Below, piece by piece: positions 1,551 through 40,015 of a stretch of 47,865 bases of DNA. Made by a program: the position numbers and the translations under genes. Every line of letters begins with the position of its first letter. Positions within the stretch are counted from its first letter, which is position 1. This stretch comes from Paraglomus brasilianum (Eukaryota): NCBI GenBank assembly GCA_910592345.1, contig CAJVPI010000158.1:1-47865 (forward strand). The letters run 5' to 3'. Below the pieces are notes generated by a model, which was given only the letters and a program-made list of their open reading frames with translations, was not told the DNA's origin and did not search any database.

Positions 1551-4500
1551 TTAGTAAACGGTTGAATACGTCCAAGATTCTGAATCTACATAATCACCGT
1601 TATATTTCTGATGTAGCACAAGTTCTCTTACATTCATTGCATAGGTATCATTTGGACTGATTTCCAATACTCTATTAAGATCGATCAATGCCTTTTCATA
1701 GTTCTTGAGCTCGTAATAAATGACTCCTCTTAGTCTCAATGAGTCTGTATTAGTTGCGTCACGACGTAGTGCCCTATTGATATCTCCCAACGCGAGATCA
1801 TGACTATTACGGTAATAGTGGACAGTTGCCCTTACTCTTAATGCGAATGAATCGGCTCTTCGCCACAGTGATTTGTTGAGATCGGTCAATGCTTTGTCAT
1901 ACTGCGTGAGCTGGCAATAAACATCGCCTCTTACTGCTAGTACCCATACATTGAGAGGATTATATGACAACGATTTGGTGAGATCGTTCAAAGCATTGTC
2001 ATAATCTTTAAGTTGATAATAAGCGTGTCCCCTTCTGCCCAATGTCCACGCATCAAGCGGTTCAATGTTTAGCGATTTGTTGAAATCTAAAAGAGCTTTA
2101 TCGTATTGCTTAAGCCAACAATAGGCATTTCCTCTTTTCTTCAATGAAAATGCAACATTTGGTTCAATTGCCAATGATCTGGTAAAGTCATTTAATGCAT
2201 ATTCATACTTGGTGAGTTGATGATAGACATCTCCCCTAATCCTCAATGCATATGCATCATTCGGTTCAATCTCTAACGATTTAGTAAGATCAGTCAATGC
2301 ATCGTTATAATGCCTGAGATTGCACTGTACACATCCCCTTCTACTCAATGTCAACGCATCATTCGGTTCAATTTGCAACGAATTATTGAAATGAGTCAAT
2401 GCATCGTTATACCTTTTAAATTGAATGTTGATATCTCCTATCTGACTCAATGTTCGTGCATTGTTTGGTTCAATAAGTAATGATCGTTCGAAATCAAGCA
2501 GTGCATCGGTGTAACGTTCGCGCATATAATATATATCACCTCTTGCTCTCAACGCCCATACATTATTCGGTTCAATACTTATTAGTAAATTGAGACTTAT
2601 TAATGCTTCGTCATACTGATAAAGTAAATAATGCACCTCTCCACTTTTACTCAATGCAAATGCATCATGCGGTTTAATCTTTAACGATTTGTTGAAATCA
2701 CCCACTGCATTGTCATACTCATTAAGCAAACTATGAACATATCCCCTTCTACTCAATGTCCATGCATCATCTGGTTTAAGTTCTGATGCCAAATTGAGAT
2801 CATTCAATGCTTTATCATACTCATTAAGCATGCAATAAGTATGTCCTCGTTTACTCAACGCCTCTGCATCATTCGGTTCGATATCTAATAGTGCATTAAG
2901 ATCATTCAATGCATTCTCATGTTGATCAAGTGTGTAATAAATCTCACTTCTTTTAGCTAATGCCCATTTATCGCCTGGTTCCATCTCCAACGCCATATTA
3001 AGATCGTTCAATGCATTGTCATTTTGGTTGAGCTTGTAATAGATATATCCTCTTTTGCTCAACGCAAATGCATTATTTGGTTCAACCTTCAAGAATTTGT
3101 TGAGATCTGCCAAAGCCTTGCTGTATTGATTGAGCATGAGATATACATTTCCCCTAGCTCTAAATGTCCATACATTATCTGGTTCCATCTTCAATAATGC
3201 ACTAAGGTCATTCAATGCATTGTGATATTGATTGAGCATGCAATAAGTTTCACTTCGCTTAGTCAATGTCCATTTATCACTTGGTTCAATTTCTAAAGAC
3301 TTGTTTAGGTCACTTAATGCAATATCATACTGTTTGAGTATGTAATGAATGTCTCCTCTTTTTCTCAATGTAAATGCACAATCCGGTTTAATATTCAATG
3401 TTTTGTTAAAATTCGCCAACGCTTCATCATACCGATTGAGTAAATAATATACGTATCCCCTTCTGCTCAATGCCCAAGCATCATCTGGTTCAATCACCAA
3501 TGCCATATTGAAATCGTTCAGTGCATTGTCATATTGATTGAGCGTGCAATAGACATATCCCCTTTTGTTTAATGTCCATGTATCATTTGGTTTAATTTCT
3601 AAAGATTTGGTAAAGTCACTTAATGCACTGTCATATTGCTCAAGCATGGAATGTACATATCCTCTTCTACTTAACGCGATCGTATCGTTTGGTTCAAGCG
3701 TTAACAACTTGTTAAAATCAGCCAACGCTTTAGCATAACGACTAAAGACATAGTAAAGACAACCCCGTTTACTTAACGTCCATGTGTCATCTGGTTGAAT
3801 TAACAGTGATTTATTGAAATCGTCTAGCGCTTCATGATATTTATCAAGCCTGTAGTAAACATGTCCCCTTCTGCTCAGCGTCCAAGCATTATCTGGTTCG
3901 ATTTGTAAAGACCTGTTGAGATCTACCAACGCAATTTCGTATTGATCAAGCTCGCGATATATGTTTCCCCTTCTACTCAATGCAAATGCATCATTAGGCC
4001 TAATTTCTAATGCTTTGTTGAGATCAACCAATGCCTTGTAATACTGACTAACCGCAAAATGCACACATGCCCTTTTGCTCAAAGTCCATACATCATTTGG
4101 TTTGATTGCCAATGATTTGTAGAGATCATCCAATGCATCTTGATGCTGATTAAGTCTGTAGTAAATGTGTCCTCTTCTACTCAATGTCCATGCATCGTAT
4201 GGGTCGATTTGTAGAGCTTTATTGAAATCACTCAATGCATTGTCATAACGTTCAAGCACGTAATATATATTTCCTCTCCTACTTAGTCCGACTTTGTCAT
4301 TAGGATTAATTTCCAACAGCTTATTGAAATCCTCCAATGCTTTGTCGTATTGGCCAAGTATATAGTACACACGTCCCCGTCTGTTTAGCGTCCAAATATC
4401 ATCCGGTTGAATCAATAATGATTTGCTGAAATCATCTAATGCATCGCGATGCCGATTAAGCCTGCAATTGACATATCCCCTTCGGCTCAATGCCCATGCA

Positions 4501-7215
4501 TCATCTGGCTTGATCTTTAATGATGTATTTAAATCATTCGATGCATTGTCATAATTCTTAAGCATACAATAAACATATCCTCTTTTGCTTAAGGCAAACA
4601 CATTATCTGGTTCAATCTTCAATGATTCATCAAGATCTTTTAATGCATTATTATATTGATTAAGCATACAATAAGCATGTCCTCTTCTGCTCAATGCAAA
4701 TGCATTATTTGGTTCAAACTCCAAGGCTTTGTCGAGATCTGCCATAGCATTGTCATATTGATCAAGCATGCAGTAAGCATGTCCTCTTTTCCCAAGTGCA
4801 AGAATATTATTTGGTTCAATCTCCAATGACTGACTAAGATAGTCCAATGCATCATCATACTGATCAAGCTGACAATAAAGATCACCTTTAAGTCTCAATA
4901 CCCAGCTATTTTTTGGTCTGATCACTAATGACTTGTTGAGATCTTTCAATGCACTGTCATAGTCCTCAAGATGATAGTAGACGCATCCCCGTCTGCTCAA
5001 TGTCCATGCATCATCCGGCTCAATGTCCAGTGATTTATCGAGGTCAGTTAATGCATTGTCATAATTCTTGATCCGGATATAGACATTTCCTCGTATACTC
5101 AAAGCAAATGCATCGTTCGGTTCAAATTTTAATGAACTGTTGAGATCATCAAGCGCATTATTATAACGACCAAGCATATGGTAGACGTTTCCTCGTATAC
5201 TCAAAGTAAACGCATCATGTGGTTCAATCTCCAGCGATTTGCTAAGATCTTTCAATGCATCGTAATATTGGTTTAAGTAATAATGGACATTTCCCCTTAT
5301 ACTCAACGCGAATGCATTATCCGGTTCAGCTTCCAATGATTGATTGAGATCCTTCAACGCGTCGCCATAGTTTTTGAGATTGCAATAGACAGCTCCTCGT
5401 TTGCTCAACGTCCATGCATCATTTGGTTCACTCTCCAGTGACTTGCTTAAATCGTTCAATGCATCGTAATGACGATTGGACATGCGATATACATTTCCTC
5501 TTACACTCAATGCATATGCATTATTTGGTTCAATCCTCAATGCCAGGTTGAGATCATCTAATGCTTTGGCATCTTGATCAAGCATGTGATAAACAAATCC
5601 CCTTCTACCCAATGCCCATACGTTGGATGGTTCAAGCTTTAATGTCTTGTTGAAATCATTTAATGCATTGTTATACAGCCTGATTGTACAATAGACATAT
5701 CCTCTTCTGCTTAGTGCAAATATTTTATTCGATTTGATTTCCAATGATCTATTCAAATCGTTCAGCGCGTTCGCATACTGATTAAGCATGTAATGGGCAT
5801 ATCCTCTCCTACTCAATGCAAAAGTATTATTGTCCGAGTTAACCTCCAATGATCTGTTAAAATCTTTTAATGCATTATCATACTGTCCGAGCATATAATA
5901 GACATGCCCTCGTTTGTTCAATGTCCAGACGTCATCCGGCTTAATCTCTAATGATTTGTTGAGATCATAAAATGCCTGGTCATGCTGATCAAGCCAGTAG
6001 TAGACATACCCCCGTCTACTCAACGTCCGTGTGTCATCTGCTTTAATCTTTAACGATTCATTAAAATCATATAGTGCAGTTTTATATTGATTGAGCTTGC
6101 GATAAATATCTCCTCTTCTGCTCAATAGATATGAATCATTTGTTTTAGTTTCCAACAGTTTATTTAGATGATTTAATTTCTGCAACAAGGTTAGTTGGTC
6201 ATACACTTCTTTACATGATGGCCGCTTATCGGGAATTTTGTCCCAGCATGCTGAGTATAGTTTGACGTATAGTTCAGGTGTTCCAGAACAAATGGATTTA
6301 TGGTTCTGAGTAAGTCCTCTGTATGGAAGTTTTCCACTAGAAATCTCCCAGAGTATTACTCCGAGGCTAAAGATGTTGGAACTATTCCTATGCTCACATA
6401 AAGTGTTCTCGACCAAAGCACCAATGTCATCTTGATTCTTGGACGTTGGACTAGCGTGTACCAACGTTGTTAGCAAATCAAAAGTCGATATTTTTGCTAC
6501 TCCCCTTTGGATAAGGATACTTTCGGAAGACTAAATTAAATTAGATGAATTAATATATCATACGCATTCTAATACACACGAAACAAAGAAAGTTTTATAC
6601 CAAGTTCTTGTGAATGATGTCAAGTTCATGTAAATATTTTATTCCATTGGTAATTTCCAGGCCAAGTTTGTACTTGTCTTTCCATGTCAAACTATCAAAG
6701 CTATTTGCCAAGTGTTCACGTAAACTTCCACCATCAGCAAAATTGAAAACTAGTTTAAAATTATCATGTCGATCTATCACATGAAATGAGATTAGTTCGT
6801 ATGCACCACAAAACTAGTCTCGAATATAATTAACGTACAGTACGTACCTATTAATAGACTTGAAAATCGAATGATGTTGGGATGATCATTTACCCGCTTA
6901 TGGTAATCCAACTAATGAGCGATGATTAAAATTAATATACAAGTCAGTTTCGTAAACATAGACAATAAGAACAAACGGTATGAAATCGATAACCACCTCT
7001 TTGACAAATTTGCTCAGTAGTTCGTCTTTACGATGCCCGTCTTTATTCAAGAAGAAAGACGTCTCTTTTATTGTAACAGCCATTCCAGAATGCTTCATTA
7101 TCGCCTTACGTATACTCCCATAGTCATCAGGTATAATTATGTCATTTTCTGAACAACAATCGACTGATCCATCCGTAACACTTTTGTTCAGCCACTCTTG
7201 TAAATTGCAAGACAT
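1551..7215 (-). CDS. TKL-type pseudokinase fused to 44 TPR repeats (~1811 aa, 4 exons)
   Basis: Exons 7215-6997, 6911-6848, 6773-6601, 6530-1551 join in frame through GT-AG introns. Kinase motifs are VTIK, HPNIIRF, HKNL (for HRD), SSESILI, KISTFDL (for DFG), SNIFSLGVILWEISSG and CW..P..RP, followed by 34-aa TPRs. Confidence 0.9.
1648..6134 (-). repeat. Coding tandem array of 44 TPR units (102 nt each)
   Basis: Counted 44 units of consensus (A/V)(W/F)(A/T)LS(R/K)RGxxYxxLxQYDxALxD(L/F)NKSLxIEPxD, all within one exon. Confidence 0.92.
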
Positions 7216-7280
7216 TGGTTTTGTTTATCTTCAGGGTTTTTTCTTGTTATATTTCCGTAGGCAAATTTGAATTGTTGCGC

Positions 7281-7288
7281 TTTTTATA
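7281..7288 (-). promoter_or_regulatory. TATA-like box upstream of the pseudokinase-TPR gene
   Basis: TATAAAAA on the minus strand about 70 nt upstream of the ATG at 7215. The AT-rich background weakens the call. Confidence 0.35.
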
Positions 7289-8854
7289 TTGTTGTTGTTA
7301 TACATTCTGCTTTTTTGGGAAGAGGGGGTTAGGGTTAGAACGATGCATTCTTTGTTAATATTAATATCGGAGAAGACATCCGATCTATTATTAGTTACTG
7401 CGAATGTAAAGTGTTACACCAACCAGTCATTTATTTTGAGGAAATACAATGTCTTTTCTAAAAAAAGCCTTATCTCTGAATGGTTCGCGAATAAGAATTA
7501 TTTATTATAGTTTTATGTCAAGCACGTATTCCCTGATTTGCAGTTTGTTATAGCTAATTGTCAGCCCTTTTAAAGCAAGTGGCTTTCTGTATGACAAACA
7601 AGTCGCTGTATCTTGTACTCGGGTAAATCGTTCCAAACATCATGTTGGTCATGTTACTGTACGTATTCTCATCTCGGCGGTGATTTGTTCATAAACCTTT
7701 CACTTTTTCAACTAATAATCTAGATTTTCAAAGGAGAATTAGAGTAACAACTATATCAGTAATAAGTAACCGTTTTGTCAAATTTTGCTTCAAGATGAAG
7801 ACTACGAGTCTACCATTCATTATGCACATTGTATGTTTATAACAACCATTGTCCGCAATTGTGACACACAATACTCAATCGCTTAGCTGTGACCTTTACT
7901 ACGCCTTCGAAATTCGAATTAGCTGTCTGCATAATATAGTGCTAACAGCACTTGTATTTTTTAACGATCAAATTTTGAGCGTAATATGCTCTGCAGTAGT
8001 TTGATAATTTGTATTGATTTTCAAAGAGAACATGGCTTTGCTGCAACTAGAAAAGTAAAGTAGCAAAGACTATTAATCCTGACATGCTAATCCCCAAACC
8101 CCACTATAATCAAATAAATTTCCTACTGCGGACTATCAGTTTGTCTTAATGGTTAGAACCAAATAGAAAGTGTAAATAAAGAAAAATGCTAATAGTAATT
8201 CAGAAAACGTAATATTAATTGTTAAACCGAATTGTATATAAGTGTATTTAGAACCTCGATATTATCGACAAACTGAAATGGTTGCCAGCAGACAAGTCAG
8301 TATATGGACTAGATAAATTTTGTCTTATTGACAATATGTAATCTCTGACTATAAATCATATTTATTCGTGGATTTTTTTTGCCGTGAGTGCGAGATCGTT
8401 TCTTTTTACGATAGTAAAGAAAATTCCATCTGCTACAACGCACTTAGTTTCATGTTCGATATTAAACTTCACAAAGACTAGATTCGCTCAGCAAGCTATT
8501 TGAAGGGTACTCTAAAACAGAATCGCTCATTGTTTTTAATCATTGTACAAATTACCTCATCATTTAACAGTTGCTGGTAGTTCATCTAACAGTTTCATTT
8601 TCTAACTCATCAGAAAGCACTTCATATGCTGCATCCTGACAAGGATACCCGACACCCTTTTTCAAGTGAATCATGAGTAGTTACTGTTTTCTGTTGCTTA
8701 TGAATCTAAAAAGATATCATTTAGTAAGTCGTTTAATAAAAGATTCTCATATAAAGAGTACTTCTTTAGAGTCAAGCCTTTTTTCTATTGATGCATGTCG
8801 CTGACTTTAATCCTCTTTGGTCCCGTATCGTACTAACTGACTTTTGTGCAAGTA

Positions 8855-9021
8855 CACAGGCAAACTCGATAAGTCGGTCATGTATGATGGACCGACTTAT
8901 CGAGAGAACCGACTTATCGAGAGATTTTAAATATTAAAACTGAGAAAAAAGCTTGGGAAGTTTTGGCCTTCTTAGGCCAAAATTGAATCATCGAGAGACC
9001 GACTTATCGAGTTTGCCTGTG
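8855..9021. mobile_element. 167-bp MITE, Tc1/mariner-pogo type, TA target-site duplication
   Basis: Perfect 25-nt TIRs (CACAGGCAAACTCGATAAGTCGGTC / GACCGACTTATCGAGTTTGCCTGTG), TA on both sides (8853-8854, 9022-9023), and internal repeats of ACCGACTTATCGAG. Confidence 0.85.
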
Positions 9022-9266
9022 TATTTGGCAGCTTCTAGTAAAGAGGCATAAGTTTAAAAAGAGAATCTCTTTGTGGATCCTCATGGAATTCCCAACAGTA
9101 TTGGGCGTCATCAGTCAAGATTAGCGAACGCCAATCAGATTTCGATATGAAATCGAAATCTTATGCGTTGTGGATATCCTGATTATCAAACCCTCTCCCA
9201 TATTTCCATATTTCCGATTACGGTAAAAAGTTAACTACTCACCCACTGTCAACACGTGCTTCCATT

Positions 9267-9274
9267 TATAAATA
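9267..9274 (+). promoter_or_regulatory. TATA-like box upstream of the pseudokinase-LRR gene
   Basis: TATAAATA about 50 nt upstream of the ATG at 9323. Confidence 0.35.
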
Positions 9275-9322
9275 TCAAACGATTTCCCACGATAAAAAAA
9301 TCAATATAGCTCTTGTCATAAC

Positions 9323-12300
9323 ATGTCTCGGAACCAAGTGGTCGACAATATGTATGAAGAATGTTTAAAACAAAGCGTACAGGAAGGGTTAGTTGCCTGC
9401 TATTCAGAAAATGATATTGCCTTAAGCCCTACGCCTATTAGTAGTGGTGGCATTAGGACATACAAGGCAGTGTTGAAGCGCTCTGGAACACCCGTTGCGA
9501 TCAAGACTCTGGTGGAGGGCTATTGCAACTGTACAAAAGAATTAAGCATGGAGCTTATCAAAGAGGTTTTACGATTGGTGATGTCACTTATATTAACGTG
9601 TGCCCCATCTGTACTAACGAGTATTAATCCATTACCAGATGAGAATTCACAAGGAAATGAAGGGTCATCCAAATATCATTGCGTTTTTAGGCGTATACAG
9701 AGGTATAGTCGTCTTATCTTACTAATAAATAATTAAAATGATACAGGCTAACTCATTTCACATTGTAGGCGACTATGGTGACTATCAACTAATTTTTGAA
9801 TTTGCTGAAAGTGAGACTCTACATATGTACTTGATGGATCACTTTGATGAGTTAACGTGGAAAGACAGGTGTAATCTTGGCTTGGATGTTACTAGTGGAC
9901 TGAAATATTTGCATGACCATGGTATAATCCACAGGGATTTGGTATTTATCACATTAATATTGATTATATCTCTGTATTAGTATATAGTAATATATTTTTA
10001 CTTATTTTGTACATTATTATTTTTGTTTGTTTTAGTCATCTAAAAACGTTCTGATTAAATCTGGCATTGCAAAATTGAGTGGATTTGGTCTATCATATGT
10101 ATTGACATTAAAACAAATGGTATTTGATGGGCAACACAAAGTATGCAAAGCTGAAGCATCCTTTAAATCTGACATTGTTAATCTTGTGAGAATTCTTTTG
10201 GAAATCTCAACTAAGGAGACATCATTTAACCGGCAGACTGAGTATTATCAAGTTACTTCAGATGGAATACCTGTTGAATACATCATGTTCTGTTTAGACT
10301 GTTTATTTTGGAATAGAGGACTTTTTCATGGCAGACCATCCTGTGAAAATGTTTATAAAAAATTGCAAGAATTTTACAAGCACAACGCAATAAATTTAAG
10401 TAGTTATCTTATTCAAGATACAGAAGCAAAGGGCTTGACAAAGGCTTTAGAGGATTCTTTTAGTATTAGCTTGAATCTTAGCAATAACAAGATTGGAAGT
10501 GAAAGTGCAGGCTTGGTAGTTTTAATAAAGGCTCTAGAATCAACATCTATTATTGTCTCTTTGAATCTTGAATACAATTGCATCAGAGATATGGATGCAA
10601 TAATTTTGGCTAAGGCTCTAGATTCCAATACTTCTTTGGCTTGCTTGAACCTCAGTGCTAACCAAATAGGTGATGCTGGATGTATAGCATTAGCAAAAGT
10701 TCTGGAATCAAACTCCTCTCTAAAATACTTGGATTTGAGTGAGAATAAGATTGGAGATATGGGTGCTGCAATGTTAGCAAAGGCTTTGGTTTTAAATTCA
10801 TTAATTTATCTCAACATCCAATTGAACAGGATTGGAGATAGTGGAGCAGCAGCTTTAGGGGAAGCTCTAGAGTCAAATTCTTCTCTAATTTCTTTAAATC
10901 TTGCATTTAATAAGATTGGCAACACTGGAGCATCAGCTTTGGCAAAGGCTCTGGAGCTGGATATCACTCTGGTATTTTTAAATTTATATTATAATCAGAT
11001 TGGAGATGCAGGAGCTACAGCCTTGGCAAAGGCTTTTGCATCAAATAGGCATCTTGTAATTTTGAATTTACAACTAAACAAAATTGGAAATACAGGAATG
11101 ACTGGTTTTTCTGGAGCCTTCACACAGGATTCCAAACTGATTTCTTTACATTTACAATCAAATTATATTGGAGATTTAGGAGCAATAGCTTTGGGAAAAG
11201 CTCTCAGTTCCAAATTGCCTTCTCTGACTTTTTTGAATCTAAAGTTGAACCAAATTAAACATGCAGGTGCAACTGCTTTGGGAAAAGCTATTGAGTTTAA
11301 TAGGAGATTAATTTCTTTGAATTTGTGTCAGAATGAGATTGAAAGTACAGGTGTAAAAGCGCTGGCAAAAGCTTTACAGTTAAGTTCCTCTTTGATCTCT
11401 TTGAATCTTAAGGCAAACAGAATTGGAATTACTGGAGTGAAATATTTGGCAGCTGCTCTAGGGCACAATTGTACTTTATCTATTTTAAATCTCAGTAGGA
11501 ATTATATTAAAGATGTAGGTGCATCAATTTTGGCAAATACATTGAAACTCAATTCTTCCTTGAACTCTCTGAATCTTAGTGAGAATTATATTGGATATGC
11601 GGGAGTAGCAGCATTGGCAGGGGCTCTAAAAGTCAATTCTTCTTTGGTTTCTTTGAATCTCAGCAACAATAATATTGCAGATGAAGGGGCATCAACTCTG
11701 GCAAAAGCTCTAGAATCAAACTCCTGTTTGATATTTCTAGACCTAGAAGAAAATAATATTCAAAGTAAAGGAGCAATAGCTTTGGCACAGTCTTTAAAAC
11801 ATAATTCTTGTTTGATGTTTTTAAATCTATCTTATAATGCTATTAGAAATAATAGTGCTACAAATACAAACTTGATAAAAGCTCTAACATCAAAGTCAAG
11901 TCTGTTCACTTTAAATATATCTCATAATAAGTTTGATGCCAAAAATGCAGCAACCTTGGCAAAAGTGATAGAATCAAAGTCCTTCCAAAAGTTTTTAAAG
12001 ATAGAGAAAAAAATTGGAGATGCAGGAGCAGTTACTTTGGCACAGATTCTAAAATCAGGCACTCATTTGAGCTCTCTAATGCTAATTGACAATATGATTG
12101 GACCTTTGGGTGCAACAGCTTTGGCAAAGGTTGTACAATATTCTTCTTTGACTGTTCTGAATCTTAGTCTGAATAATATTGGGGTAAAAGGAACAATGGC
12201 ATTAGCAAAAGCTTTAGAGTTTAACTCTTCTTTGGCTGTTTTGAACCTATCTTGTAATGGGATTGGAGGTGAAGGAGCAAAATTTTTGGCAAAGGTCTTA

Positions 12301-23633: not shown

Positions 23634-24374
23634 TTAATAACCAGTCGATGGTGGCCGGTCAAGTGTACGTCCAGTTCGTTGGCCGTCATATGCAGGATCA
23701 TCATTATCATCATCGCAATCATCGCCATGACTGCTTCCAAGGCGGTATGCGTTTCGATACGGCCGCCCTCGTAGACCTCTCGCCTCACCCTCCATCGGAA
23801 CCAGTCCTTCCATTTCCGGTCTTTCATGCTCTTCCTGCAGTTTATCTTCCTCCTCCTCCTTCTTTTTCTGCTCTCGATGTTCTCTTCTTTGATTTGCAAG
23901 AATGCTCCTCCTTCTCCTATTATCCCAGTCCTCCTCGACTTCTCTCTTGACTCTCTCTTCATATGCTTTGGCTTCAATTTTCTCTTTCTGCATCATTCGA
24001 TCTGCCGTCTCTCTTCTCGCCTCGGCCTTTTGATGAAACTCATTTAATAAACTTTGTGCAATCTTCAGCTTGTTTGTATCCATTCGATCATTCTCGAGAG
24101 TGAACGACTCTTTGAACGAGACCACTTTTTTTTTAAATCCAAGTGCAAAAAGAAAATCAAGCCCACCGTCGACTTCACAGACATCCCTCCTTAACCTGGC
24201 ATTTTCTGAGGGTAAGGAACGATATTTCGGAACGTCCGGATTTGAGAGGATGTTGTCAACTACTTTTTGGAGTATTTTCACACAGTTGGAAGCAACGATG
24301 GGATCTTTGTTGTGAGTGATTTTTTTCAAAAGTATATCGTGAAATTTTTTGTGAATTAAGTCTGAAGATGTCAT
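23634..24374 (-). CDS. PUB-domain protein (p97/Cdc48 adaptor-like) with charged coiled-coil tail
   Basis: ILQKVVDNILSNPDVPKYRSL...N...GGLDFLFALGF is a PUB signature; single-exon 246-aa ORF. Confidence 0.82.
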   Translation of the reverse strand: MTSSDLIHKKFHDILLKKITHNKDPIVASNCVKILQKVVDNILSNPDVPKYRSLPSENARLRRDVCEVDGGLDFLFALGFKKKVVSFKESFTLENDRMDTNKLKIAQSLLNEFHQKAEARRETADRMMQKEKIEAKAYEERVKREVEEDWDNRRRRSILANQRREHREQKKKEEEEDKLQEEHERPEMEGLVPMEGEARGLRGRPYRNAYRLGSSHGDDCDDDNDDPAYDGQRTGRTLDRPPSTGY

Positions 24375-27300
24375 TTTTGCAAAAGATGATCATGATTCAC
24401 ATTGTTTATCCTGTTTGATCAGTGTGTCACAGTCGTATGGCTGAAACTTCTTTATATAGTATTGTTTTTGTATTTACCAGAAATACTTCGATGGGATGGA
24501 ATGCGTGACCACTTATTTCTGGTAACACGTATTAACGTGTGACTAATAAAGAAAAACAACCCTCAAACCAGATGGGAAGTAATGTGAATTATCTATCATA
24601 TGCGGAGAAGCGCAATAGGAAGAGTGCAAATGGATACAAAAATTTTAGTAATCGCATGCGGCACTTACTGTACTTTTGTATTCACTAGAAAAATTACCCA
24701 AGTGTATATACAGAAATAAGCACATACTTAAATACGTTTTTGTGGTTACTCATTATCATACTATTTAGTAAGACAGTCTCTTTTGAATTATAATTGCAAG
24801 AAAAAATTGGGTAAAAAAAGTTGAATAGAATACCATCCAGAGAACGTGTACTAAATCCTTTGGCGGTTGGATTGCTTATAAATAATATAATTTTATACAA
24901 CCCAAGCTCACGCTGAATCAAGCAAAAGTTTAAAGAGCCAGAACAGGCGTTGTTATTCTTTACATAATAAATAACACACTAGTTTTATAAATTGCTGTAT
25001 AGCATTTTGCAAGGGCCTTAATCTTGATCATCACATTGTGTTTAAACCATATTCGAAACTTCAAGGTAGGCGTTTTAAATCTATTTATATCTGTTGGCTA
25101 TATTTATTAGACTATTTGAGTAGTTTTCTAATTCTATCCTGGAGATGGAACGAACGATGTAGGATGTTCTTTTATTTAGATCTGAAATTAGTTTGGAGTT
25201 TGCTGAAGAAGCTGCTTAAAACTTGCAAAATCACATCTTCAGTCGATCGATATAACAAGTCATTTCCCCATCCAAAAACAAACTTAACAATTGTCACGAC
25301 TGATGCTGAAATCCATGTGATCTTTTTTATTGCTTAATTACTGCAGGGGATAACAAACAACGTCCGCAGCGCCGCTGAAGAAGAGAATGATAATATTAGT
25401 GACACAAATTTGTATTAAACATAACACGAACGATGGGAATACTCTTCACAGTGCAATGTAACAATTACACTGGTCAATAGAAAAATATAGTTGCAAATGC
25501 AGCATAATGCTTGGCTTATTGTTACATTTGTCAGTTATATTTATGATAACCTTACATAAGATTATTAATTCAGAAGTAAAATGTTTATTTTATATGGCCT
25601 TAAAATACTTACTCAACCAAACGCATTATTACGTTTATTATTTGCTTGGAAATTACGCGTTATCTACATAGTAAAATTGCGTGTTTTTTTTTCTCAATGT
25701 CTGGTCTGAAGTAATGTTGGTTTTAAAAAATGAATATAATCTATCCTAACAACTCCATCGCTTCTCCAACTTTTATTTCCAAAGTCAGTATGTGTCAATG
25801 TTGTTAAAGGCACGCTGATGATGTTGGTTGTGGTCTCGTTAAGGTAGCATAATTAAACTAATAAGAATTGTTAATTGGTTTTTTGACCGTAAGACTATGT
25901 TGCGAATGTATGATATCAGGCCAAGTATATCGTTGCTAATGTTTTTATGTAGAGGTAATCGCTCACTATAAGTAATTGTTCACAGTAAAACGAGTATATT
26001 TTATCGTCATCATCTGAAATCTCCCTTTGTTGTAACAAATATTTATTACTCAATGAAGGTGCAGTTTGTTTGGTTTTTTTTTGGAAAATGAGACTAACCT
26101 CGTAGTATTATTATTATTATTGAGTATCACTCCATGGATAATGACGAAATTATATTATGTATATCATATTAAAATCACAATCATAGGGAAACATGACATC
26201 CGCTCACCGCCTTTTGGACATTTATATTTTTTATGCATCGCCAAAGCGTTTATTATTTCTTGAATTTCTTTCTCAGAAAAGTTTGTCATTCAAATAATTT
26301 GAATAAAATGATAAATAAAAATTTAACGAGTTAATTCGTTATCCTCAACTACGAGTTTATTTTACATCGTCTTTCTTGACTTATGATCAGGTATGGTATG
26401 CCTCATGTTGTCATGGTATATTTTTACTGTATCTATTGTCCGCCTTACCTATTAAAAAAAGTCAAATTTCAACTAGTCAAATCGGACATTTCGATAAGAC
26501 TTCACTGTGTAACATGTTGGACCAAAGCGGATCAAATATTTAAAGTTTTTATGTTCGATGATACAAAAATTTTTTTGATTAAAATAAAAATTACCGGTTT
26601 TGGCATAAACACGAAGAAATCAGAATATCTCAAATTATTGAATACACTCTTCCTCAATGCAAACGAAATGAGTTTTTCATATTGACGGCTCGTCGTTTGC
26701 AGTGCCAATTCTATTACGCACAGTAATTGTATGGGTCACCCTTCAGATTCATTGTATTATAACCGATTACCAAGATCTACTGTATGTTTGTTTACTGAGT
26801 TAAAACGTTTTGCTTTCAACGATATGGTCATTGGTATCACTTATTAAAGACTAGTATGTTATTCAATATCATACCTTGTAATTGTAACTAATCAGTGCAG
26901 CGTCACTATCTTTATTCTTGAATACGTGACAACAGCACTATATAGGGGAATATAACATGCTTTCAGTTATATAAGTCCTTAATCCCTCCAATTATGAATA
27001 GAGCCTTTACCAACAAGAACACAGTCGGGACAGCTAAAATTATGTTTTATCATAGAGATGTTCTCTTATAGAGTTTATTCATTCACTAATAAGTCAGATC
27101 CCACGATATAATGCTCTTTATGAGATGATGTTTTTATAGAGATTCGACTGTATATCCAAAAATGTTATAGACCTTAAATCTCGGTTATATACACTATATA
27201 ACACAAAGCCATACTTTTTGAGATATAATGACTTTCATAATAACAAACGATATCAGTTTAAAATGCACTATTCTTCTACACAAGATATTTACTAAATTAT

Positions 27301-28715
27301 CTGACATTTTATCGTCATTTGAAAGACAACTGTGCAACTGCTTCATTATACTTAATCCGCAAATAACCATTAAACCGCAAGGCACTTGCTTATTAGTTAC
27401 AGTTGTCTTTGCATTTTTCGCATACTGTATACACGTCCCTCTACTTTCTCTAACCTACACAGTAAGCGTAAACAATCTCGATTCTACCGTAATGCACGTG
27501 CTTGACATCGAGCCAAAAAAACAAAACGGACACAAAGCTAGCGGATTGTTGCTTAACTTTACCAACAAAACCATTCGCGCTCGTGTGGAACACAACTACT
27601 TACATATGTTTATTTATCTGTAAATCTTAAGACTACCACACCATCTAACCGCTTTGTTGCATAATTTATCCAACAGGTGCTTACCTTATTTCAATGTAAT
27701 GTTTCATCACATACAGATGTTACGTCTTCAATCTCCAACAAACTTCCGTGGGCACGTACTTGGAGTTTTGCGTTCTTTTATTGTCTACACCTACGATTGA
27801 ACGCTAAAGGTGTACCTGGGCACGTACTTGGCTGAGAGCAACTTTGGTACAACTTAATACAGCAATTTTTACTGTTCGGACGTCTCAATACCGTCGCCCT
27901 TTCGGAAAAAGCCGTTTACATAAATCACTAGCAAGTCACCCTCACAGTGTAGCGTCAAAAAACGTCCACTGATAAGAAGATGCCTCACGTCAAGTAGAAG
28001 CAAACTCTACAAAGTAAACTCACCCACGAAACAAAAACAACCGACAACCCGAGAATTGCGCTCTTCGAATACAAGGGTTTGGCCATCAACGACTTTAAAT
28101 ATCACTATCAAGTATAACATTTAGTTACACAAATAATGAAGTATATTTTGTTACCTCAAATAGAAATTAATTAATCATGTTATTCTCACGCTAACAAACA
28201 GAGTTTCACGCTATGGTACCCTAGTTTATTGTCCTTACCATATTTGATAATATAAATTTTCAATTACCAAGATAGTCAAGGGTGATGGACTTAGTGAAGG
28301 CAATGATACAATCTCTATTTGCAATAAAAATTCATGTTGCTGCTATTTACCCCAACCAATGCCTTATTTGGCAATGGCTAATGAGCACTATCCCAAACAT
28401 TTCCAATTTCCAAATCTGTTAGGAGCGATGAGCTAGTGAGAGCGACCTATTACTATCGCTATGTGGTAACATACTTCCGAAAAAAATTTTCGCTGTGTAA
28501 CATGTCGCAAAGCTCCTTCAAATAATATTATTGTACCACGCAAATAAGTCTTTTGTGCAATATGATTGGATAGTTTTATATCGAACGAAAACAGTTGGAG
28601 AAATAGAAACAACGTTATCAAGTATCGCTATTGCTGAAGAGAGCACTAGAAGATATTGTTGAGAAATTTCCAGACCAATAATTATATACGTACAATTTTG
28701 CAGTGGGATATTAAT

Positions 28716-31700
28716 ATGGACTATCAGTATTCGGGGCTAGCAGACACTTTGGTATGTTCGATTGTACCTAGGCATGTTCGTTTCGTTGTACTTATCACTT
28801 ATACGAATGCCCTTTATTAATATCTAAATAAATGATTATTATATTAATTTCGTTAGGAAATTGAACAACCTTCATCCTCAAATACCAAAAACAAAGGGAA
28901 AGAGAAGCAGCTTGAAAATGCAGAGACTAACTATGGAGCTGAGGGAAATCTCATTGTCTTTGAAAGTGACAGCAACAATAGCAATAGTGATTATGAACAA
29001 ATGTTTACCATAAACATGAGCAAGGATGAATTAGATAAACAATTGACTACATCCTTAGAATCAATTGTCAACAGCAATGACAGAATCAGTCATCTGATTA
29101 AATTATCCAATCTGTTGCTATCATCTGGTACCAAGTTAGCAAATAATCAATTGAGAAATGTTTTGAGAACAATCGGAACTAACATTGCATATGAGGATTA
29201 TGATGTGACCACTGGTATTGAATTTGAACTGCATCTTAGAACATATGTATTAGCATTGGAAATTTATTGCAGGCAACCTCATAAGATGAGAAAGGAGTTC
29301 CATGGAGTTTTGTATGAAAATCTTGCAAAATTACATGAGGTTCATCAATCTTACATCAGAGCCCTAGAAAATGGCTTAAACCCTACATGTAGCTTATTTG
29401 CTAATTTGCAAGGAAGTGCTAAAGTTCAAAATTACAACAGTGATTTTTTACTCCTGCATCTTTATGATACTCTTCATATAATGGATGATGATAAAAGTGT
29501 TTGGCTTGAAATTTTAAACCAACTCAAGACTTTGCTTGCTACATTAGTTGAGGCTTTGCCTGGTATGACTGGTATTATGTCAACTGCAGAGGCCCCAATT
29601 GATAATAAAGCTACTATAGGAATTTATAACAATATCCACAAGACCTTACAATCAAAGTTTTCTGTGGGACATTGGTACAAGGATTGGAGATATTTATATT
29701 GCATTTATCAAGCATTTGTTGAATGGTCAGCTGCTCCAATTCATAAGAAACTAGTTGTCAAAGGAGAATTGATGCTTATAAAGGATCTATGGAGGTTTGG
29801 AGACCAAGAATGGAATAAAGCAGTTTCAGCAAAATCAGAAATAGATGGATATAACAATAAATTTAAAATAAAGGGCATGCTAAATTATGTCCCAGAATCA
29901 AATCCATATTCTTTATTGTTTGGTATATTGGAAATTGCTCAAAATCTTATAAACTCTACAAAAAATATTAGTACCTTAGCTCATTGTTACTATATTGCAA
30001 AACTATCTCTGGACATAGTACAAACAGAATTTATTCAGTTTAAAGCAATTGAAATTCTAATTACTCTCTATAAAAAAGATTCAACTATGTTTTCTGTTGT
30101 ACAAATTGACCTAGATCAGCATGCTGAAGGTTTTTCTACCTTGGACCAAGGTAAACAATTTAAAGACATGAGAGAATACATTGATAAAAAATATACATAC
30201 ATTAACCAGGCAAACAGCAGAACAAGTATTGAAACATCAGTCTCAAGACAGAAAACAAAGCTTTCAGACAAGAGACCTGAAGAACTTTTTGATTCAAGCC
30301 CAAATGATTTATTAATCTTAGATGTGATTGCAGATCATCTTACATGTCCATTTACACAAGAAGTTACAGAAGATTTTAGAATGCTTCCATGTGGACACAA
30401 AATCAGTTATATGGCATTAGAAACGTTCATGAGGATGAACTATCTTGAACTTAAATGCTTTTATTGTAGAAGGAAATTTCAATTGGAAGATACTGACAAA
30501 ATACCAAGCTCACCAATTTACAAATCATTGTATGAAAAATTTGTCAAAGCTGGACATATTGCACCAAGAGCTCAATTAAAAGAATTTATACAACATGACA
30601 CAAGAGATTTTACAGCCATTGTGAAGAGTCAGAATGATGATGATAATGATGATGTTGAGAAATCTTTTATTATAAAATCAAAATTTTTACACTTGCTTAC
30701 AATGAAACCAAAGAAAACAATTTTACAAACAATAAGGAGACCAAAAAGGCTACATCCTGCATACAAGCAAGGTAAGAAAGCTCTGGATGAAAAAAGATTT
30801 AATGATGCAATATTATGGCTAGAAAGAGCACTTTTACATTATCCCAACAGTGCAACCATTCAAATTGATCTGGCTGTTGCATACATGGAAAATATAGACT
30901 ATAAAAAATGTTATGATTATATAACTCAAGCTATCAAAAATAGCCCTAACAATGCTAGAGCATGGGCATGGCGTGGAAAGTATCATGTGCAGCAATCAGA
31001 GTACAGACAAGCTCTTAAGGATCTTAAACAGTCATTGAGGATTAATGCAAGTGAAGCACTTGCATTAAAAACCAGAGGACATGTCTATTACATGCTCTAT
31101 CAGTATGATTTGGCATTGAATGATTTTAATCAATTATTAGAAATTGAACCAAATAATACAATTGCATTAAGAACAAGGGGGAAAATTAACTCTACACTTG
31201 ATGAGTTTAACAATGCACTAAGAGATTTTAATAAATTACTGGAGATAGAACCAAATGATACAGACATACTGCTTGCAAGGGGCATTGTCCATCTTAATCT
31301 TTGTCAATACAAGAATGCACTGAGAGACCTTAATACATTATTGCAAATTAAACAAATAACTACAATGGTACATCATCTAAGAGGATTAGTTTATCTCATG
31401 CTTGAGCAGTATGATTATGCATTGGTTGATCTTGATAAATCATTGGAGATTGATCTAAGTAATTTTAATATTAACCAGTATGAAAATGCATTGAGTAAGT
31501 TGAATAAACTTTTAAATACTGAACCAGATAACACATGTGCATTAAGAGTAACAGGAAAGATCTATTATGCACTCAGACAATATGACAATGCATTAGCTTA
31601 TTTTAGTAAGTTATTAGAAGTTCAACCACAGGGAAATGTAGATACACTGAATATACGAGCAGCTGTCTATCTTGATCTTTGTCAGTACAATGAAGCACTG

Positions 31701-32978
31701 GATGACATTAGTAAGTCATTAAACATCAATCCAGATGAAACTCTTTACAAACAGTTAGAATATTTGTTTAATCAATTAAAAGCACCTACTCACACGAGTC
31801 AAAATCAATGTTTATCATTGAGCTTCAGTCAATATATGATTAGAAATACTGAAGCAATGGTTTTAGCAAAAATTTTAAAATTGAATCTCCCTTTGCTTTC
31901 TCTGGATCTTTCAAATAATCGAATTGGAGACACAGGAGTAACAGCTCTGGCAAAGGCTCTAGAATCAAATTCCTCCCTGATTTCTTTAAATCTTGGTAGT
32001 AATAAGATTGGAGAAACAGGAGCTACAGCTTTGGGAAAGGCTCTAGAATCAAATTCATCTCTGGCTTCTTTGGACCTTGGTAGTAATATGATTGGAGAAA
32101 CAGAAGCTACAGCTTTGGGAAAGGCTCTAGAATCAAATTCATCTCTGGCTTCTTTGAATCTTAATTATAATCAAATTGGAGATACAGGAGCAACATCTTT
32201 GGCAAAAGCTCTAGAATTAAATTCATCTCTGGCTTCTTTAAAGCTTGGTTATAATCAAATTGGAGATACAGGAGCAACATCTTTGGCAAAGACTCTAGAA
32301 TCAAATTCTGTCCTAACCTCTTTAAATCTATATGGAAATCGGATTGGAGCTACAGGAGCAACAGCTTTGGCAAAGACTCTAGAATCAAACTCCTCCCTGA
32401 CTTCTGTAAATCTATATGGAAATTGGATTGGAGATACAGGAGCAACAGCTTTGGCAAAAACTCTAGAATCAAATTCCTCCCTGACTTTTTTGAATCTTGG
32501 CAGTAATATTATTAGAGATATAGGAGCAATAGCTTTGGCAAAGGCTCTAGAATCAAATTCCTTCCTGATTTCTTTAAATCTTGGTAGAAATATGATTGAA
32601 GATACAGGAGCAACAGCTTTGGCAAAGACTCTAGAATCAAACTCCTCCCTGACTTCTTTGAATCTTGAGTATAATCAAATTGGATATACAGGAGCAACAG
32701 CTTTGGCAAAAACTCTAGAATCAAATTCCTCCCTGACTTCTTTGAATCTTAGCAATAATAAGATTGGAGATACAGGAGCAATAGCATTGGCAAAGGCTCT
32801 GGAAACAAATTCTTCCCTGACTTCTTTGAATCTTGACAGTAATAAGATTGGAGATACAAGAGTAGCAGCTTTGGCAAAAACTCTAGAATATAGAATCAAA
32901 TTTCTCCCTGGTGCGCCGAAATCTGTGTGTTATATTTCACGTTTGCATAGTGAATTAAGATCCTTATATTCCTTATAA
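28716..32978 (+). CDS. Multidomain protein: unknown helical N-terminal domain, degenerate RING/U-box, ~9 TPR, 12 LRR (~1385 aa)
   Basis: Exon 28716-28751 (MDYQYSGLADTL, GTATGT donor) joins in phase 0 to exon 28857-32978; a further upstream exon is possible. CPFT...PCGHKIS...CFYC at 30345-30467, TPRs at about 30755-31740, 84-nt LRRs at 31893-32910. Confidence 0.88.
31893..32910 (+). repeat. High-identity 84-nt coding tandem repeat (12 LRR units)
   Basis: ATTGGAGATACAGGAGCAACAGCTTTGGCAAAG(G/A)CTCTAGAATCAAA(T/C)TCCTCCCTGA recurs nearly verbatim every 84 nt. Confidence 0.93.
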
Positions 32979-34069
32979 TTTATATCTTATTGTTAATAAA
33001 CGAGTATCGCATTTACTTGAACATATACTTTTGACCCTATTCTTTAAATTAGTTGATATACAGTATCTGAGAAACCGTTTGTCCCGCAATTATCTGAGTG
33101 GCGAAATAGGATATTTAATCGTTAGTTTTCGAACGCGTTCAATCTAAGTGATAAACCATTGTACTCCAAACGGGAGATTACACTCGAGAACGATTCTATA
33201 TCTAGGATAAACGTCATTCTACGGTAAAAAAGCCCGTAAGTAAAAGCCTTGCGATTACAAGGTCACTAACTGTACAATCAGATATTTAACTTGAATAGGA
33301 GGCGCCACGCTCCGTCGAGACTAGTTAAATCCCAAGTGTCGATTACTTTCTGCTCTCCCGCAGTAGTCGGCACGACATAAGGAAGTCGAAAAAAAATAAT
33401 AAACGAATTATTAATCGATGTAAGTTCCGAGGAGGTCGTCGTCAATTTGAGTTCTTTGATGGGATTTATATGGTGATGGGATTTATATACGACATATCGA
33501 TATTTAATACATTCCTCTGGAATCCATATTGATTTACTAGAATTAAATTTGAGGTAAATGTATAAAACGAAACTCAAAACGAATTCAACACAAAATTTTT
33601 TTAAATCTTATTGGACGCTTCCATAGACAGTCTCTGTCGTCAGCAACTTTACAAAAAAGAGAAAAATTATACCAGAATAACTTCCGTATTCTTTGAATGA
33701 GTATACGTATTTATTGTGATTGTAGTATACGAAAGTTATGTGTAGATATTAGTTATGATATTTTCCCACTTCTTATATTAATCGCGCTGCTAAATTTAAA
33801 ATACTAATATTTTACGCGCTTTTGTGTTGTGACGAATATGCATTGAACGCTTACGACACAAGTCGATGCAGTCGTTAATCGAATTTTGATTGTAGAGCGT
33901 GGAGATTATAAAGTGAAAACACAATGAAATTAAAACGGGGAAGATCTACTATGCAATTGATGAGTACAGCTTTGTTAGGAATAATAGTACGACCTCCCTG
34001 ACAAACTGTGCGACAGTTATCGGAGAGTGCATCCGTTTGTCCGCATTCTGTTTTTCTTAACAATCCAAA

Positions 34070-35276
34070 ATGTCCAACGATTCATACAAACAATGGCTAG
34101 AAACAAGCATTCGGGAAGGTTCAATTTATTGCTGTCCAGAAAGTGACATAAAACTAGACCCCCACTATATCGGCAAAGGAACATTTGGAGTGGTATTCAA
34201 GGCAACGGTGAAACAGAAAAACAGTATAATTGCCAAGGCAATCAGGAGTAAAAAACAGAACATTCTGTCCGGTATGACTGTTGCGGTGAAGACATTCTTT
34301 GATAAACATAACGGTTGTAAGGAGGAAGATTTGTACCGAAGTTTTGTCAAAGAGGTTTGTTATCTCAACCATATTATTGTCAAAGGCCACCCGCATTCAT
34401 AGTTGTGATAGAGACTGATTTTTGATATGAATTGTACGTTAGCTAAAACACCACCAGCAGGTGAACGATCATCCCAACATTATTCGTTTTCTAGGTCTAT
34501 ACAAAGGTATGTTAATACATGGTTATCTGATAAACTAATATATTTACGAGAAGGTTGGCAACAACCACACTGGGATATTTATTCACGGTTTATTGATGAA
34601 ACAGACAGGTTAGATAAATATCATATGATATTCGAACTAGCTGAAGGTGGAACTTTGTACAACCACCTGAGAGGACACTTCAATGATTTAACCTGGGAAG
34701 ATAAATATGCCTTAGGCTTGGGAATTACTAATGGCTTGAAATATCTGCATGAGCTTAAGATTATTCACAAGGATTTGGTACTTATCAAATGTTGGCTGTA
34801 TTTTTGGTTGATGATTGTTAAAGTTATTTACATATCAAAAATCTTTGTTAATTTAGACGTCCTCCAATATTCTTATCCAATCGGGTGTCGCAAAGATAAC
34901 TGATTTCGGTTTGTCGACGGTACTGAAAAGAATCATGTCCTCATCACGTGGTGGAACTCCAGCATATAGGGATCCAGTATGTTTCAAAGACTTGAAATAC
35001 AAGCGTCGAAAGGAATCCGACATCTTTAGCCTTGGGGTGATACTGTGGGAAATTTCTAGTGGAAAAAACCCATGTGAAGGACGTACTGAAAGTACTACAA
35101 TAATTTTATATAGAAGGGATGGTTTTCGAGATCCTCCAGTTTCTGGAACACCTGAAGAATATGTTAAATTGTATTCAGAATGTTGGGATGAAGACCCAAA
35201 TAACCGGCCCGCCTGCGAACAGGTTTATGAGAGATTAATGAATTGTAGTAAGAATAATGCAAATACGGTGATGTGA
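34070..35276 (+). CDS. Catalytically intact TKL-type protein kinase, kinase domain only (~313 aa, 4 exons)
   Basis: Exons 34070-34354, 34443-34506, 34605-34777, 34857-35276. IGKGTFGVV, VAVK, FVKEL, HKDLTSSNILI, KITDFGLS, GGTPAYRDP, SDIFSLGVILWEISSG, CW..P..RP. Confidence 0.93.
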
Positions 35277-39952: not shown

Positions 39953-40015
39953 ATATTGACATAATGAGCAATGCAATTACGGTGAAATTTAGCGCATCTA
40001 GTGTACAACGTATTT
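39953..40015 (-). repeat. Dispersed repeat, inverted copy of 14060-14133
   Basis: The reverse complement matches 14060-14133 apart from a short indel. Confidence 0.75.

What the first reader, a model, noticed from the sequence alone, without database searches (positions are those of the whole stretch)
1551..35276. Candidate NBD-less surveillance system: repeat-fused pseudokinase sensors, a stand-alone active paralogous kinase and a RING-TPR-LRR protein
Seen: four genes are built from the same modules in different combinations: pseudokinase-TPR44, pseudokinase-LRR27, helical-dRING-TPR-LRR12 and kinase alone. Only the repeat-less kinase keeps all catalytic motifs (GxGxxG, VAVK, HKD..N, DFG, GT..Y). 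Both repeat-fused kinases have lost catalytic residues but keep long open frames. No NACHT/NB-ARC P-loop is visible in any of them. Known: TKL kinases with repeat domains are expanded in Glomeromycotina; pseudokinase/kinase division of labour occurs in immunity (ZED1/ZRKs, IRAK2/IRAK4, MLKL/RIPK3); fungal NLRs use variable TPR/WD/ANK repeats as sensors. Inference: the repeat arrays sense ligand (bacterial, endobacterial, host or allorecognition signals), the dead kinase domains dock or allosterically activate the small active kinase, and the RING protein gives a ubiquitin output.
Basis: partly seen in the sequence, partly recalled or inferred. Interest (0 to 1): 0.88.

Follow-up and report, generated by a model that had tools for sequence, protein, structure and literature searches.

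The report
Shuffled kinase-repeat genes, not one system
Four genes in a fungus resembling early-branching mycorrhizal fungi are real mixes of kinase, RING and repeat modules, but they are likely ordinary members of two large, reshuffling families of candidate internal receptors rather than one linked circuit of dead sensors and an active partner.

Summary
The four genes exist as described: pseudokinase-44 TPR (G1), pseudokinase-about 27 LRR (G2), helical-degenerate RING-TPR-12 LRR (G3) and an intact stand-alone kinase (K); none has a P-loop. The proposed circuit is not supported. The genes are two pairs separated by 16 kb holding six unrelated genes. In close relatives, repeat-fused kinases are normally intact: 20 of 20 repeat-fused metagenome loci and 19 of 20 repeat-fused database proteins keep the DFG aspartate (searches favoured intact kinases). 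K carries the N-lobe insert of a kinase-TPR subfamily and likely just lost its array. The kinase family has hundreds of members per genome in these fungi. What survives: the arrays look like constrained binding surfaces (G3 LRR concave-face dN/dS about 1.9, p=0.02; rest 0.25), modules move between paralogues (one locus joins a G1-type front to an active kinase-TPR back), and G1/G2 lie head-to-head and share a rare 11-residue deletion in the alpha-G region. G3 is a new LRR-bearing variant of an unnamed Glomeromycotina helical-RING-TPR family. Verdict: new variants of a known expanded family; a sensor role is plausible, the specific G1/G2-K-G3 system is unlikely.

The parts
1551..7215 (-). G1: pseudokinase-TPR gene, exons 7215-6997, 6911-6848, 6773-6601, 6530-1551; 1811 aa
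1653..6140 (-). G1 array of 44 TPRs (aa 283-1778)
6285..6300 (-). approximate site of the 33-nt in-frame deletion in the G1 kinase alphaG-alphaH region
7216..9322 (.). 2.1 kb spacer between the head-to-head G1 and G2 starts; holds a 179-nt element with 31-nt inverted ends (8849-9027)
9323..12816 (+). G2: pseudokinase-LRR gene, exons 9323-9565, 9639-9702, 9769-9941, 10036-12816; 1086 aa
10245..10265 (+). approximate site of the 33-nt in-frame deletion in the G2 kinase alphaG-alphaH region
10465..12708 (+). G2 array of about 27 28-residue LRRs (aa 304-1051)
16340..24389 (.). six unrelated genes between the two pairs: membrane-protein ORF, SRA1-domain, Rdx, EAP30/Vps22, GDPD, PUB-domain
28716..32978 (+). 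G3: helical-degenerate RING-TPR-LRR gene; candidate 36-nt first exon 28716-28751 (inferred), main exon 28857-32978
29004..30236 (+). G3 all-helical N-terminal domain; no Pfam family, alpha-solenoid-like, no specific fold match
30345..30467 (+). G3 degenerate RING; 5 of 8 zinc-ligand positions kept (C1, C3, H4, C7, C8 by my reading of the sequence)
30762..31796 (+). G3 TPR array (8 by window HMM, about 10 in all; limits approximate)
31875..32882 (+). G3 array of 12 LRRs, units 84% alike in DNA, hypervariable concave positions
34070..35276 (+). K: intact stand-alone kinase, exons 34070-34354, 34443-34506, 34605-34777, 34857-35276; 313 aa; no repeat remnant downstream

Best explanation
G1, G2 and K are paralogues from a large, module-shuffling family of TKL-type kinases fused to TPR, LRR or Sel1-type repeats, G3 is an LRR-bearing member of a second family of helical-RING-TPR proteins, and they likely act as separate cytosolic receptors or scaffolds rather than as one linked circuit. 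The usual family member is an intact kinase with its own C-terminal repeat array (shown by sequence). Inferred mechanism: the array binds a ligand or partner protein on its concave face and the attached kinase signals in cis, so no helper is needed. Duplication and exchange between paralogues give variants (shown for L005 and for arrays shared by G3 and kinase genes): K likely lost its TPR array and stayed active; G1 and G2 lost catalytic and substrate-binding elements but are likely kept for their arrays as binding scaffolds or decoys; G3 likely gained a young LRR array and would couple binding to ubiquitination. If G1 or G2 use an active kinase, it would come from the genome-wide pool with no special role for K. 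The ligand (microbial, host or self) is untested.
For: Same three intron positions in G1, G2, K. Nearest named relatives are Paraglomus occultum and other Glomeromycotina kinases; P. occultum has 349 PK_Tyr motifs in 39.6 Mb (PMC9453076). Of 37 close metagenome loci, 20 show a repeat after the kinase (11 TPR, 2 LRR, 7 Sel1-type by a loose pattern); all 20 keep DFG and the catalytic Asn and 19 keep HKD; 2 of the 20 have a stop in an aligned piece. Of 66 database proteins, DFG Asp is lost in 1 of 20 repeat-fused and 3 of 45 repeat-less, 1 unaligned. K has a 25-residue beta2-beta3 spacer (standard 8); 11 loci have a long spacer and the 5 of them with a readable tail are all TPR-fused. L005 matches G1 over its first 350 nt with two introns (79-84 of 88-90 in four of five windows, 64 of 90 in one) and L002 after that (82-88 of 89-90 in the exon windows up to nt 810). 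G3's LRR array is 78-82% identical in DNA to the kinase-LRR locus L016. Repeat units evolved under constraint (dN/dS outside the binding face 0.23-0.28 in all three arrays), with G3's concave face at 1.92, p=0.024. K branch dN/dS 0.15 against background 0.17. Six unrelated genes lie between the pairs. No hydrophobic 19-mer above 1.8.
Against: Both family searches were seeded with the active kinase (patterns included GVAKITDF), so degenerate relatives are under-counted and the true share of repeat-fused pseudokinases is unknown. The genome of this window is not held and the close loci are under 2.7 kb, so neighbourhoods were not compared; the density figure is borrowed from another species and counts a wider family. 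G1 and G2 are head-to-head and share an 11-residue deletion seen in no other sequence but one (span 28 in G1 and G2, 26 in P0053, 36-44 in 100 of 103), which independent decay does not explain well. One annotated Rhizophagus protein (P0076, 1 of 124) fuses a kinase to the helical-RING-TPR module. The dN/dS test on repeats ignores gene conversion and uses 6 codons in 11 units. L005 could be an assembly chimera.
Confidence: 0.6

Rival explanations
1. G1 and G2 are a co-regulated head-to-head pair of pseudokinase receptors from one dead ancestor, one with a TPR and one with an LRR array, working together and signalling through active family kinases in trans; K and G3 are bystanders.
For: Divergent starts 2.1 kb apart; same-length deletion in the alphaG-alphaH region and loss of the activation segment in both; a G1+G2 clade is not rejected (AU p=0.057); exon-4 branch dN/dS 0.44 and 0.28, below 1 (p=0.03 and 0.005); G1-type N-lobe against L005 has 5 silent and 5 replacement changes in 67 codons (ratio 0.27, Fisher p=0.035).
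Against: G1 and G2 exon 4 are less alike (165 of 350 nt) than either is to an active paralogue (224 of 379, 200 of 356); free trees do not join them; breakpoints cannot be shown identical; branch dN/dS mixes time before and after inactivation, and G1 exon 3 gives 0.93; a search with a G1+G2 profile gave 5 hits, none with the 28-residue span or a TPR/LRR array (weak, word-limited).
Confidence: 0.17
2. G1 and G2 are dispensable duplicates now decaying; their kinase domains are vestigial and the genes will be lost.
For: Long kinase branches (1.04 and 2.54 against a median of 0.16); raised dN/dS against background; no orthologous C-lobes found; stops occur in 3 of 37 related loci.
Against: Frames of 4980 and 2781 nt are open, all kinase-domain indels are in frame and all six splice junctions are GT..AG despite that divergence; repeats show purifying selection, though that is historical.
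Confidence: 0.15
3. One reading: dead repeat-fused kinases G1/G2 sense ligands and dock on or activate K, and G3 supplies a ubiquitin output, as one linked NBD-less surveillance module.
For: The local pattern is real; G3 and K are adjacent, 1.1 kb apart on one strand; P0076 fuses kinase and helical-RING-TPR; pseudokinase-kinase division of labour is established elsewhere (recalled).
Against: 16 kb and six unrelated genes split the set; repeat-fused relatives are intact; K looks like a truncated kinase-TPR; P0076's kinase is in a different clade and may be a merged gene model; at the P. occultum density about 8 windows per genome would hold 3 or more such kinases by chance alone.
Confidence: 0.08

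Closest known systems
Expanded TKL/PK_Tyr_Ser-Thr (PF07714) kinases of Glomeromycotina, with Sel1/TPR/LRR repeats
   Same: Same Pfam family, best named hits in Paraglomus, Gigaspora, Funneliformis and Rhizophagus; kinase-TPR (P0003), kinase-LRR (P0027) and kinase-Sel1 (P0019, P0043) forms already in public annotations. Expansion stated in PMC9453076, PMC6123716, PMC10234402 (passages read).
   Different: Very long arrays (44 TPR, about 27 LRR) on kinases with a shared alphaG-region deletion; Paraglomus-like subfamily with a beta2-beta3 insert.
Rhizophagus irregularis TKL pseudokinase expansions with repeat fusions (Kwon et al. 2019, Sci Signal 12:eaav3810)
   Same: Recalled: reports pseudokinase expansion with domain shuffling in this fungus and suggests roles in plant-fungal interaction. 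Only the reference line was seen; the text is not held.
   Different: Membership in its named pseudokinase families could not be tested.
Fungal NLRs (NACHT/NB-ARC with TPR, WD40 or ANK repeats)
   Same: Cytosolic, C-terminal superstructure-forming repeats, variable positions on the binding face, N-terminal enzymatic module.
   Different: No nucleotide-binding domain; LRRs are not the usual fungal NLR sensor (PMC10197012, passages read).
Plant BSK pseudokinase-TPR scaffolds; ZED1/ZRK; IRAK2; MLKL (recalled)
   Same: Pseudokinase fused to TPR (BSK) or acting in immune signalling; G1's array matches the BSK1-like TPR model among many TPR models.
   Different: Different lineage, far longer arrays, no N-terminal Gly for myristoylation, no NLR or four-helix-bundle partner shown.
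RING/U-box E3 ligases with repeat substrate receptors (Gid2/Rmd5-type degenerate RING, recalled; TRIM RING fold)
   Same: RING fold (TRIM69 Z 9.2, rmsd 1.9, 71 aligned; TRIM21 Z 8.7, rmsd 2.1, 75 aligned).
   Different: Unnamed helical N-terminal domain; TPR plus LRR arrays; activity untested.

Membership tests
NLR (STAND) | central NACHT or NB-ARC domain with P-loop | tested here: not met
   no GxxxxGK[ST] in 4 of 4 proteins; domain maps leave no room for one in G1, G2, K; no such Pfam family listed
NLR (STAND) | C-terminal superstructure-forming repeats | tested here: met
   TPR/LRR arrays in G1, G2, G3
NLR (STAND) | ligand-triggered oligomerisation and immune output | not testable with these tools
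   needs biochemistry and genetics
Glomeromycotina expanded TKL kinases | PF07714-type kinase with nearest relatives in the AMF expansion | tested here: met
   nearest solved structures by sequence are Eph, MLK and TAK1 kinases
Pseudokinase | loss of at least one of beta3 Lys, HRD Asp, DFG Asp | tested here: met
   G1 lacks both Asp; G2 lacks the DFG Asp; K lacks none
Pseudokinase | measured lack of phosphotransfer; retained fold or allosteric role | not testable with these tools
   branch dN/dS cannot separate constraint from earlier history
RING E3 ligase | RING fold | tested here: met
   model residues 439-516 align to TRIM69 and TRIM21 RINGs; Pfam zf-RING_2 only E=0.03
RING E3 ligase | eight canonical zinc ligands | tested here: not met
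   5 of 8 by reading of the sequence: a degenerate RING
RING E3 ligase | E2-dependent ubiquitin transfer | not testable with these tools
   needs an in vitro assay
Sensor-helper gene pair or module | tight linkage conserved across genomes | tested here: inconclusive
   G1/G2 head-to-head, but K and G3 lie 16-21 kb away; related contigs too short; no genome held
Sensor-helper gene pair or module | catalytic loss goes with repeat fusion across the family | tested here: not met
   (searches biased to intact kinases)
Sensor-helper gene pair or module | physical interaction of sensor and helper | not tested
   no complex prediction run: only half-domains are contiguous in the window

The most novel reading that the evidence does not exclude
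Early-branching mycorrhizal fungi run an NLR-independent receptor repertoire in which kinase, pseudokinase and helical-RING output modules are recombined with diversifying TPR, LRR and Sel1 arrays; G1/G2 is a head-to-head pseudokinase receptor pair of that repertoire, marked by a shared alphaG deletion, and G3 is an LRR receptor-E3 ligase under diversifying selection.
Probability: 0.25. Interest if true: 0.7.

Novelty: new variant of a known kind. Interest (0 to 1): 0.33.

Why it matters
Why mycorrhizal fungi carry hundreds to thousands of TKL kinases is open. These data do not give a new four-gene system, but they give testable handles on that question: sequence signs of module exchange between paralogues, a diversifying LRR face on a predicted E3 ligase, a head-to-head pseudokinase pair, and an unnamed helical-RING-TPR family with over 100 database relatives. 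If the arrays prove to sense non-self, this would be a receptor class without a nucleotide-binding domain in fungi.

Tried and rejected
No whole genome is held, so no genome-wide census. Expression: (4 of 24 listed runs; RNA status mostly guessed; table partly cut) two runs hold near-identical, spliced urease pieces; X2 holds a 486-nt G3 piece with 4 differences; kinase-region contigs show joints at the modelled intron 2 and 3 positions, but the one long listed piece is 89% alike, so these are paralogues and K's own transcript was not shown. No read data were obtained for G1/G2, so their expression is open. First codon-model run did not converge and was discarded (redone). A recalled resemblance of G3's helical domain to Mortierella NLR N-terminal Arm-like domains found no support: no such Pfam hit at E 10, no P-loop domain in 124 relatives (three chance motifs in Lys/Gly-rich linkers). 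Foldseek gave no match at E<=0.001 (weak Ufd2 rows); wide structural search gave only generic helical solenoids, Z up to 11; Atlas best score 0.85. No TPR/LRR remnant behind K. Four look-ups of earlier findings were empty. Literature: 9 searches found no held paper on this architecture set; most subscription papers are not held and no supplements were read, where kinase domain-architecture tables may exist. No complex prediction was run. Loci L038-L080 (distant kinases) were left out of all counts; trees used 57 and 18 rows with enough exon-4 coverage.
Full report
Source and gene models. The window is a gene-dense, roughly 36% GC eukaryotic sequence with short GT..AG introns. Its kinase's nearest named relatives are from Paraglomus occultum (up to 64% over exon 4) and other Glomeromycotina; the species was not determined and no genome is held. 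Splicing by coordinates gives G1 (minus, 7215-1551, 1811 aa), G2 (plus, 9323-12816, 1086 aa) and K (plus, 34070-35276, 313 aa), each with four exons and introns at the same three positions, so they are paralogues. G3 is a 1373-codon frame (28857-32978) with a possible 36-nt first exon.

Observation check. G1 has 44 TPRs, G2 about 27 LRRs, G3 about 10 TPRs and 12 LRRs, and none of the four has a P-loop. K keeps every catalytic motif. G1 keeps the beta3 Lys and alphaC Glu but has HKN, Ser for the catalytic Asn, TFD for DFG and no Gly loop; G2 keeps VAIK, Glu, HRD and Asn and has GFG for DFG. Both also lack the normal activation segment and 11 residues in the alphaG-alphaH region (element names from standard kinase anatomy). 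The four genes are two pairs: G1/G2 head-to-head with 2.1 kb between starts, and G3/K in tandem 1.1 kb apart, split by 16 kb with a membrane-protein ORF and SRA1-domain, Rdx, EAP30/Vps22, GDPD and PUB genes.

Does catalytic loss go with repeat fusion? No, in what could be sampled. A metagenome scan returned 80 loci, of which L001-L037 are close family members; 15 of the 37 share one dataset prefix, so many paralogues occur together. Twenty show a repeat after the kinase (11 TPR, 2 LRR, 7 Sel1-type by a loose pattern); all 20 keep DFG and the Asn, 19 keep HKD, and 2 have a stop in an aligned piece. Among 66 database proteins the DFG Asp is lost in 1 of 20 repeat-fused and 3 of 45 repeat-less ones, with 1 unaligned. 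Both searches were seeded with K and favour intact kinases, so they cannot give the true share of dead members; they do show that intact kinase-repeat fusions are common and need no helper. A search with a G1+G2 profile gave 5 hits, none an orthologue with an array (weak).

What is K? It has a 25-residue beta2-beta3 spacer where G1, G2 and the LRR and Sel1 members have 8. Eleven loci have a long spacer (13-27), and the 5 of these with a readable tail are all TPR-fused. K ends a few residues after the kinase, where the TPR linker begins in relatives, with no repeat remnant behind it. Trees leave K in an unresolved group near the TPR clade. Its branch dN/dS is 0.15 against a background of 0.17. 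The simplest reading (inference) is an active kinase-TPR paralogue that lost its array, not a dedicated helper lineage.

Is the linkage unusual? P. occultum has 349 PK_Tyr motifs (passage read) in 39.6 Mb (abstract). At that density a window of this size expects 0.42; three or more has probability 0.009, or about 8 windows per genome, before any tandem duplication. This is a borrowed figure for a wider family than the subfamily here. Hits also appear to cluster (consecutive ids P0016/P0018; shared contig lengths for P0031/32/37 and P0007/29/51; inference). R. irregularis has 2,533 expanded kinases (PMC10234402, passage), and PF07714 is the commonest motif in its expanded genes (PMC6123716, passages).

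Module exchange. Locus L005 matches G1 over its first 350 nt, including two introns (79-84 of 88-90 in four windows, 64 of 90 in the intron-1 window), then switches within exon 3 to the active L002 type (82-88 of 89-90 in exon windows up to nt 810) and runs into TPRs. It is a recombinant or an assembly chimera. G3's LRR array is 78-82% identical to that of the kinase-LRR locus L016, and short stretches of its TPRs are about 80% identical to kinase-TPR loci.

Selection. With position classes fixed beforehand from repeat anatomy, a codon model over repeat units gave: G3 LRR concave positions 1.92 against 0.25 (11 units, p=0.024 for differing from 1), G2 0.57 against 0.23 (22 units), G1 TPR groove 0.61 against 0.28 (38 units) (pairwise counts agree for G3; one search failed to converge). 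Gene conversion can inflate such tests. So G3's young array shows a modest sign of diversifying selection; G1 and G2 arrays show constraint, not positive selection. On the pseudokinase branches exon-4 dN/dS is 0.44 (G1, p=0.03) and 0.28 (G2, p=0.005, long branch), and exon 3 gives 0.93 and 0.46, not different from 1; these averages cannot tell a constrained pseudokinase from later decay. Open frames of 4980 and 2781 nt, in-frame indels and intact splice sites favour retained proteins.

G3. Its N-terminal 530 residues find 20 Glomeromycotina-type helical-RING-TPR proteins and 106 cluster representatives (104 new). None of the 124 scanned had an LRR by the window-built profile, though many are fragments; one (P0076) has an N-terminal kinase of another clade. 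The helical domain has no Pfam family; the model (pLDDT 72) is an alpha-solenoid with no specific match. The RING segment aligns to TRIM69 (Z 9.2, rmsd 1.9, 71 residues) and TRIM21 (Z 8.7, rmsd 2.1, 75 residues) and keeps 5 of 8 zinc ligands. E3 activity is inferred only. A 486-nt piece with 4 differences occurs in a run that also holds near-identical urease pieces (RNA status guessed).

Unexplained. G1 and G2 have the same shortened span between the alphaF and alphaH motifs (28 residues); of 103 spans measured, 100 are 36-44 and one is 26. A G1+G2 clade is neither recovered nor rejected (AU p=0.057), and the two are only 165 of 350 nt alike in exon 4. Common descent from one dead ancestor and convergent loss both remain open; with the head-to-head layout this is the best lead left.

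Mechanism and comparison. Shown: architecture, paralogy, intact fused relatives, constraint on arrays, RING fold. Inferred: arrays bind ligands, intact fusions signal in cis, G1/G2 act as scaffolds or decoys, G3 ubiquitinates. Untested: ligands, binding among the four, expression of G1, G2 and K. These proteins may work like fungal NLR sensors but are not NLRs, which need a NACHT or NB-ARC domain (PMC10197012, passages; that review also notes repeat-protein genes changing expression with mycorrhiza formation and endobacteria in Gigaspora). Glomeromycotina MLKL-like kinases with Sel1 repeats are noted in PMC8778642 (passages). Pseudokinase expansion with domain shuffling in R. irregularis is recalled from Kwon et al. 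2019, of which only the reference line was seen. Verdict: new variants of a known expanded family; interest 0.33.

Noticed in passing
window 8849-9027: 179-nt element with 31-nt, 97% complementary inverted ends and internal 17-nt direct repeats between G1 and G2; MITE-like.
   Followed up: no
window 32948-33377: Stretch between G3 and K matched, with gaps, by contigs in two runs, one at depth 198; probably a multi-copy element.
   Followed up: no
window 35901-38772 (-): Intron-bearing urease gene; contigs of several runs skip its introns and are near-identical.
   Followed up: partly
window 41151-41624 (+): ORF with a RING-like Cys pattern followed by the start of a ubiquitin-like domain (Pfam E=0.0014).
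   Followed up: no
window 16340-17374 (+): Intronless 344-codon hydrophobic ORF with a coiled-coil tail and no clear Pfam family.
   Followed up: no
L005 1-1014: Mosaic kinase-TPR gene: G1-type 5' half, L002-type 3' half, switch within exon 3.
   Followed up: yes
P0076: Annotated Rhizophagus diaphanus protein with kinase, helical domain, RING-like segment and TPRs in one chain; may be a merged gene model.
   Followed up: partly
window 14059-14133 and 39953-40016: Short inverted intergenic similarity, 77% over 75 nt.
   Followed up: no
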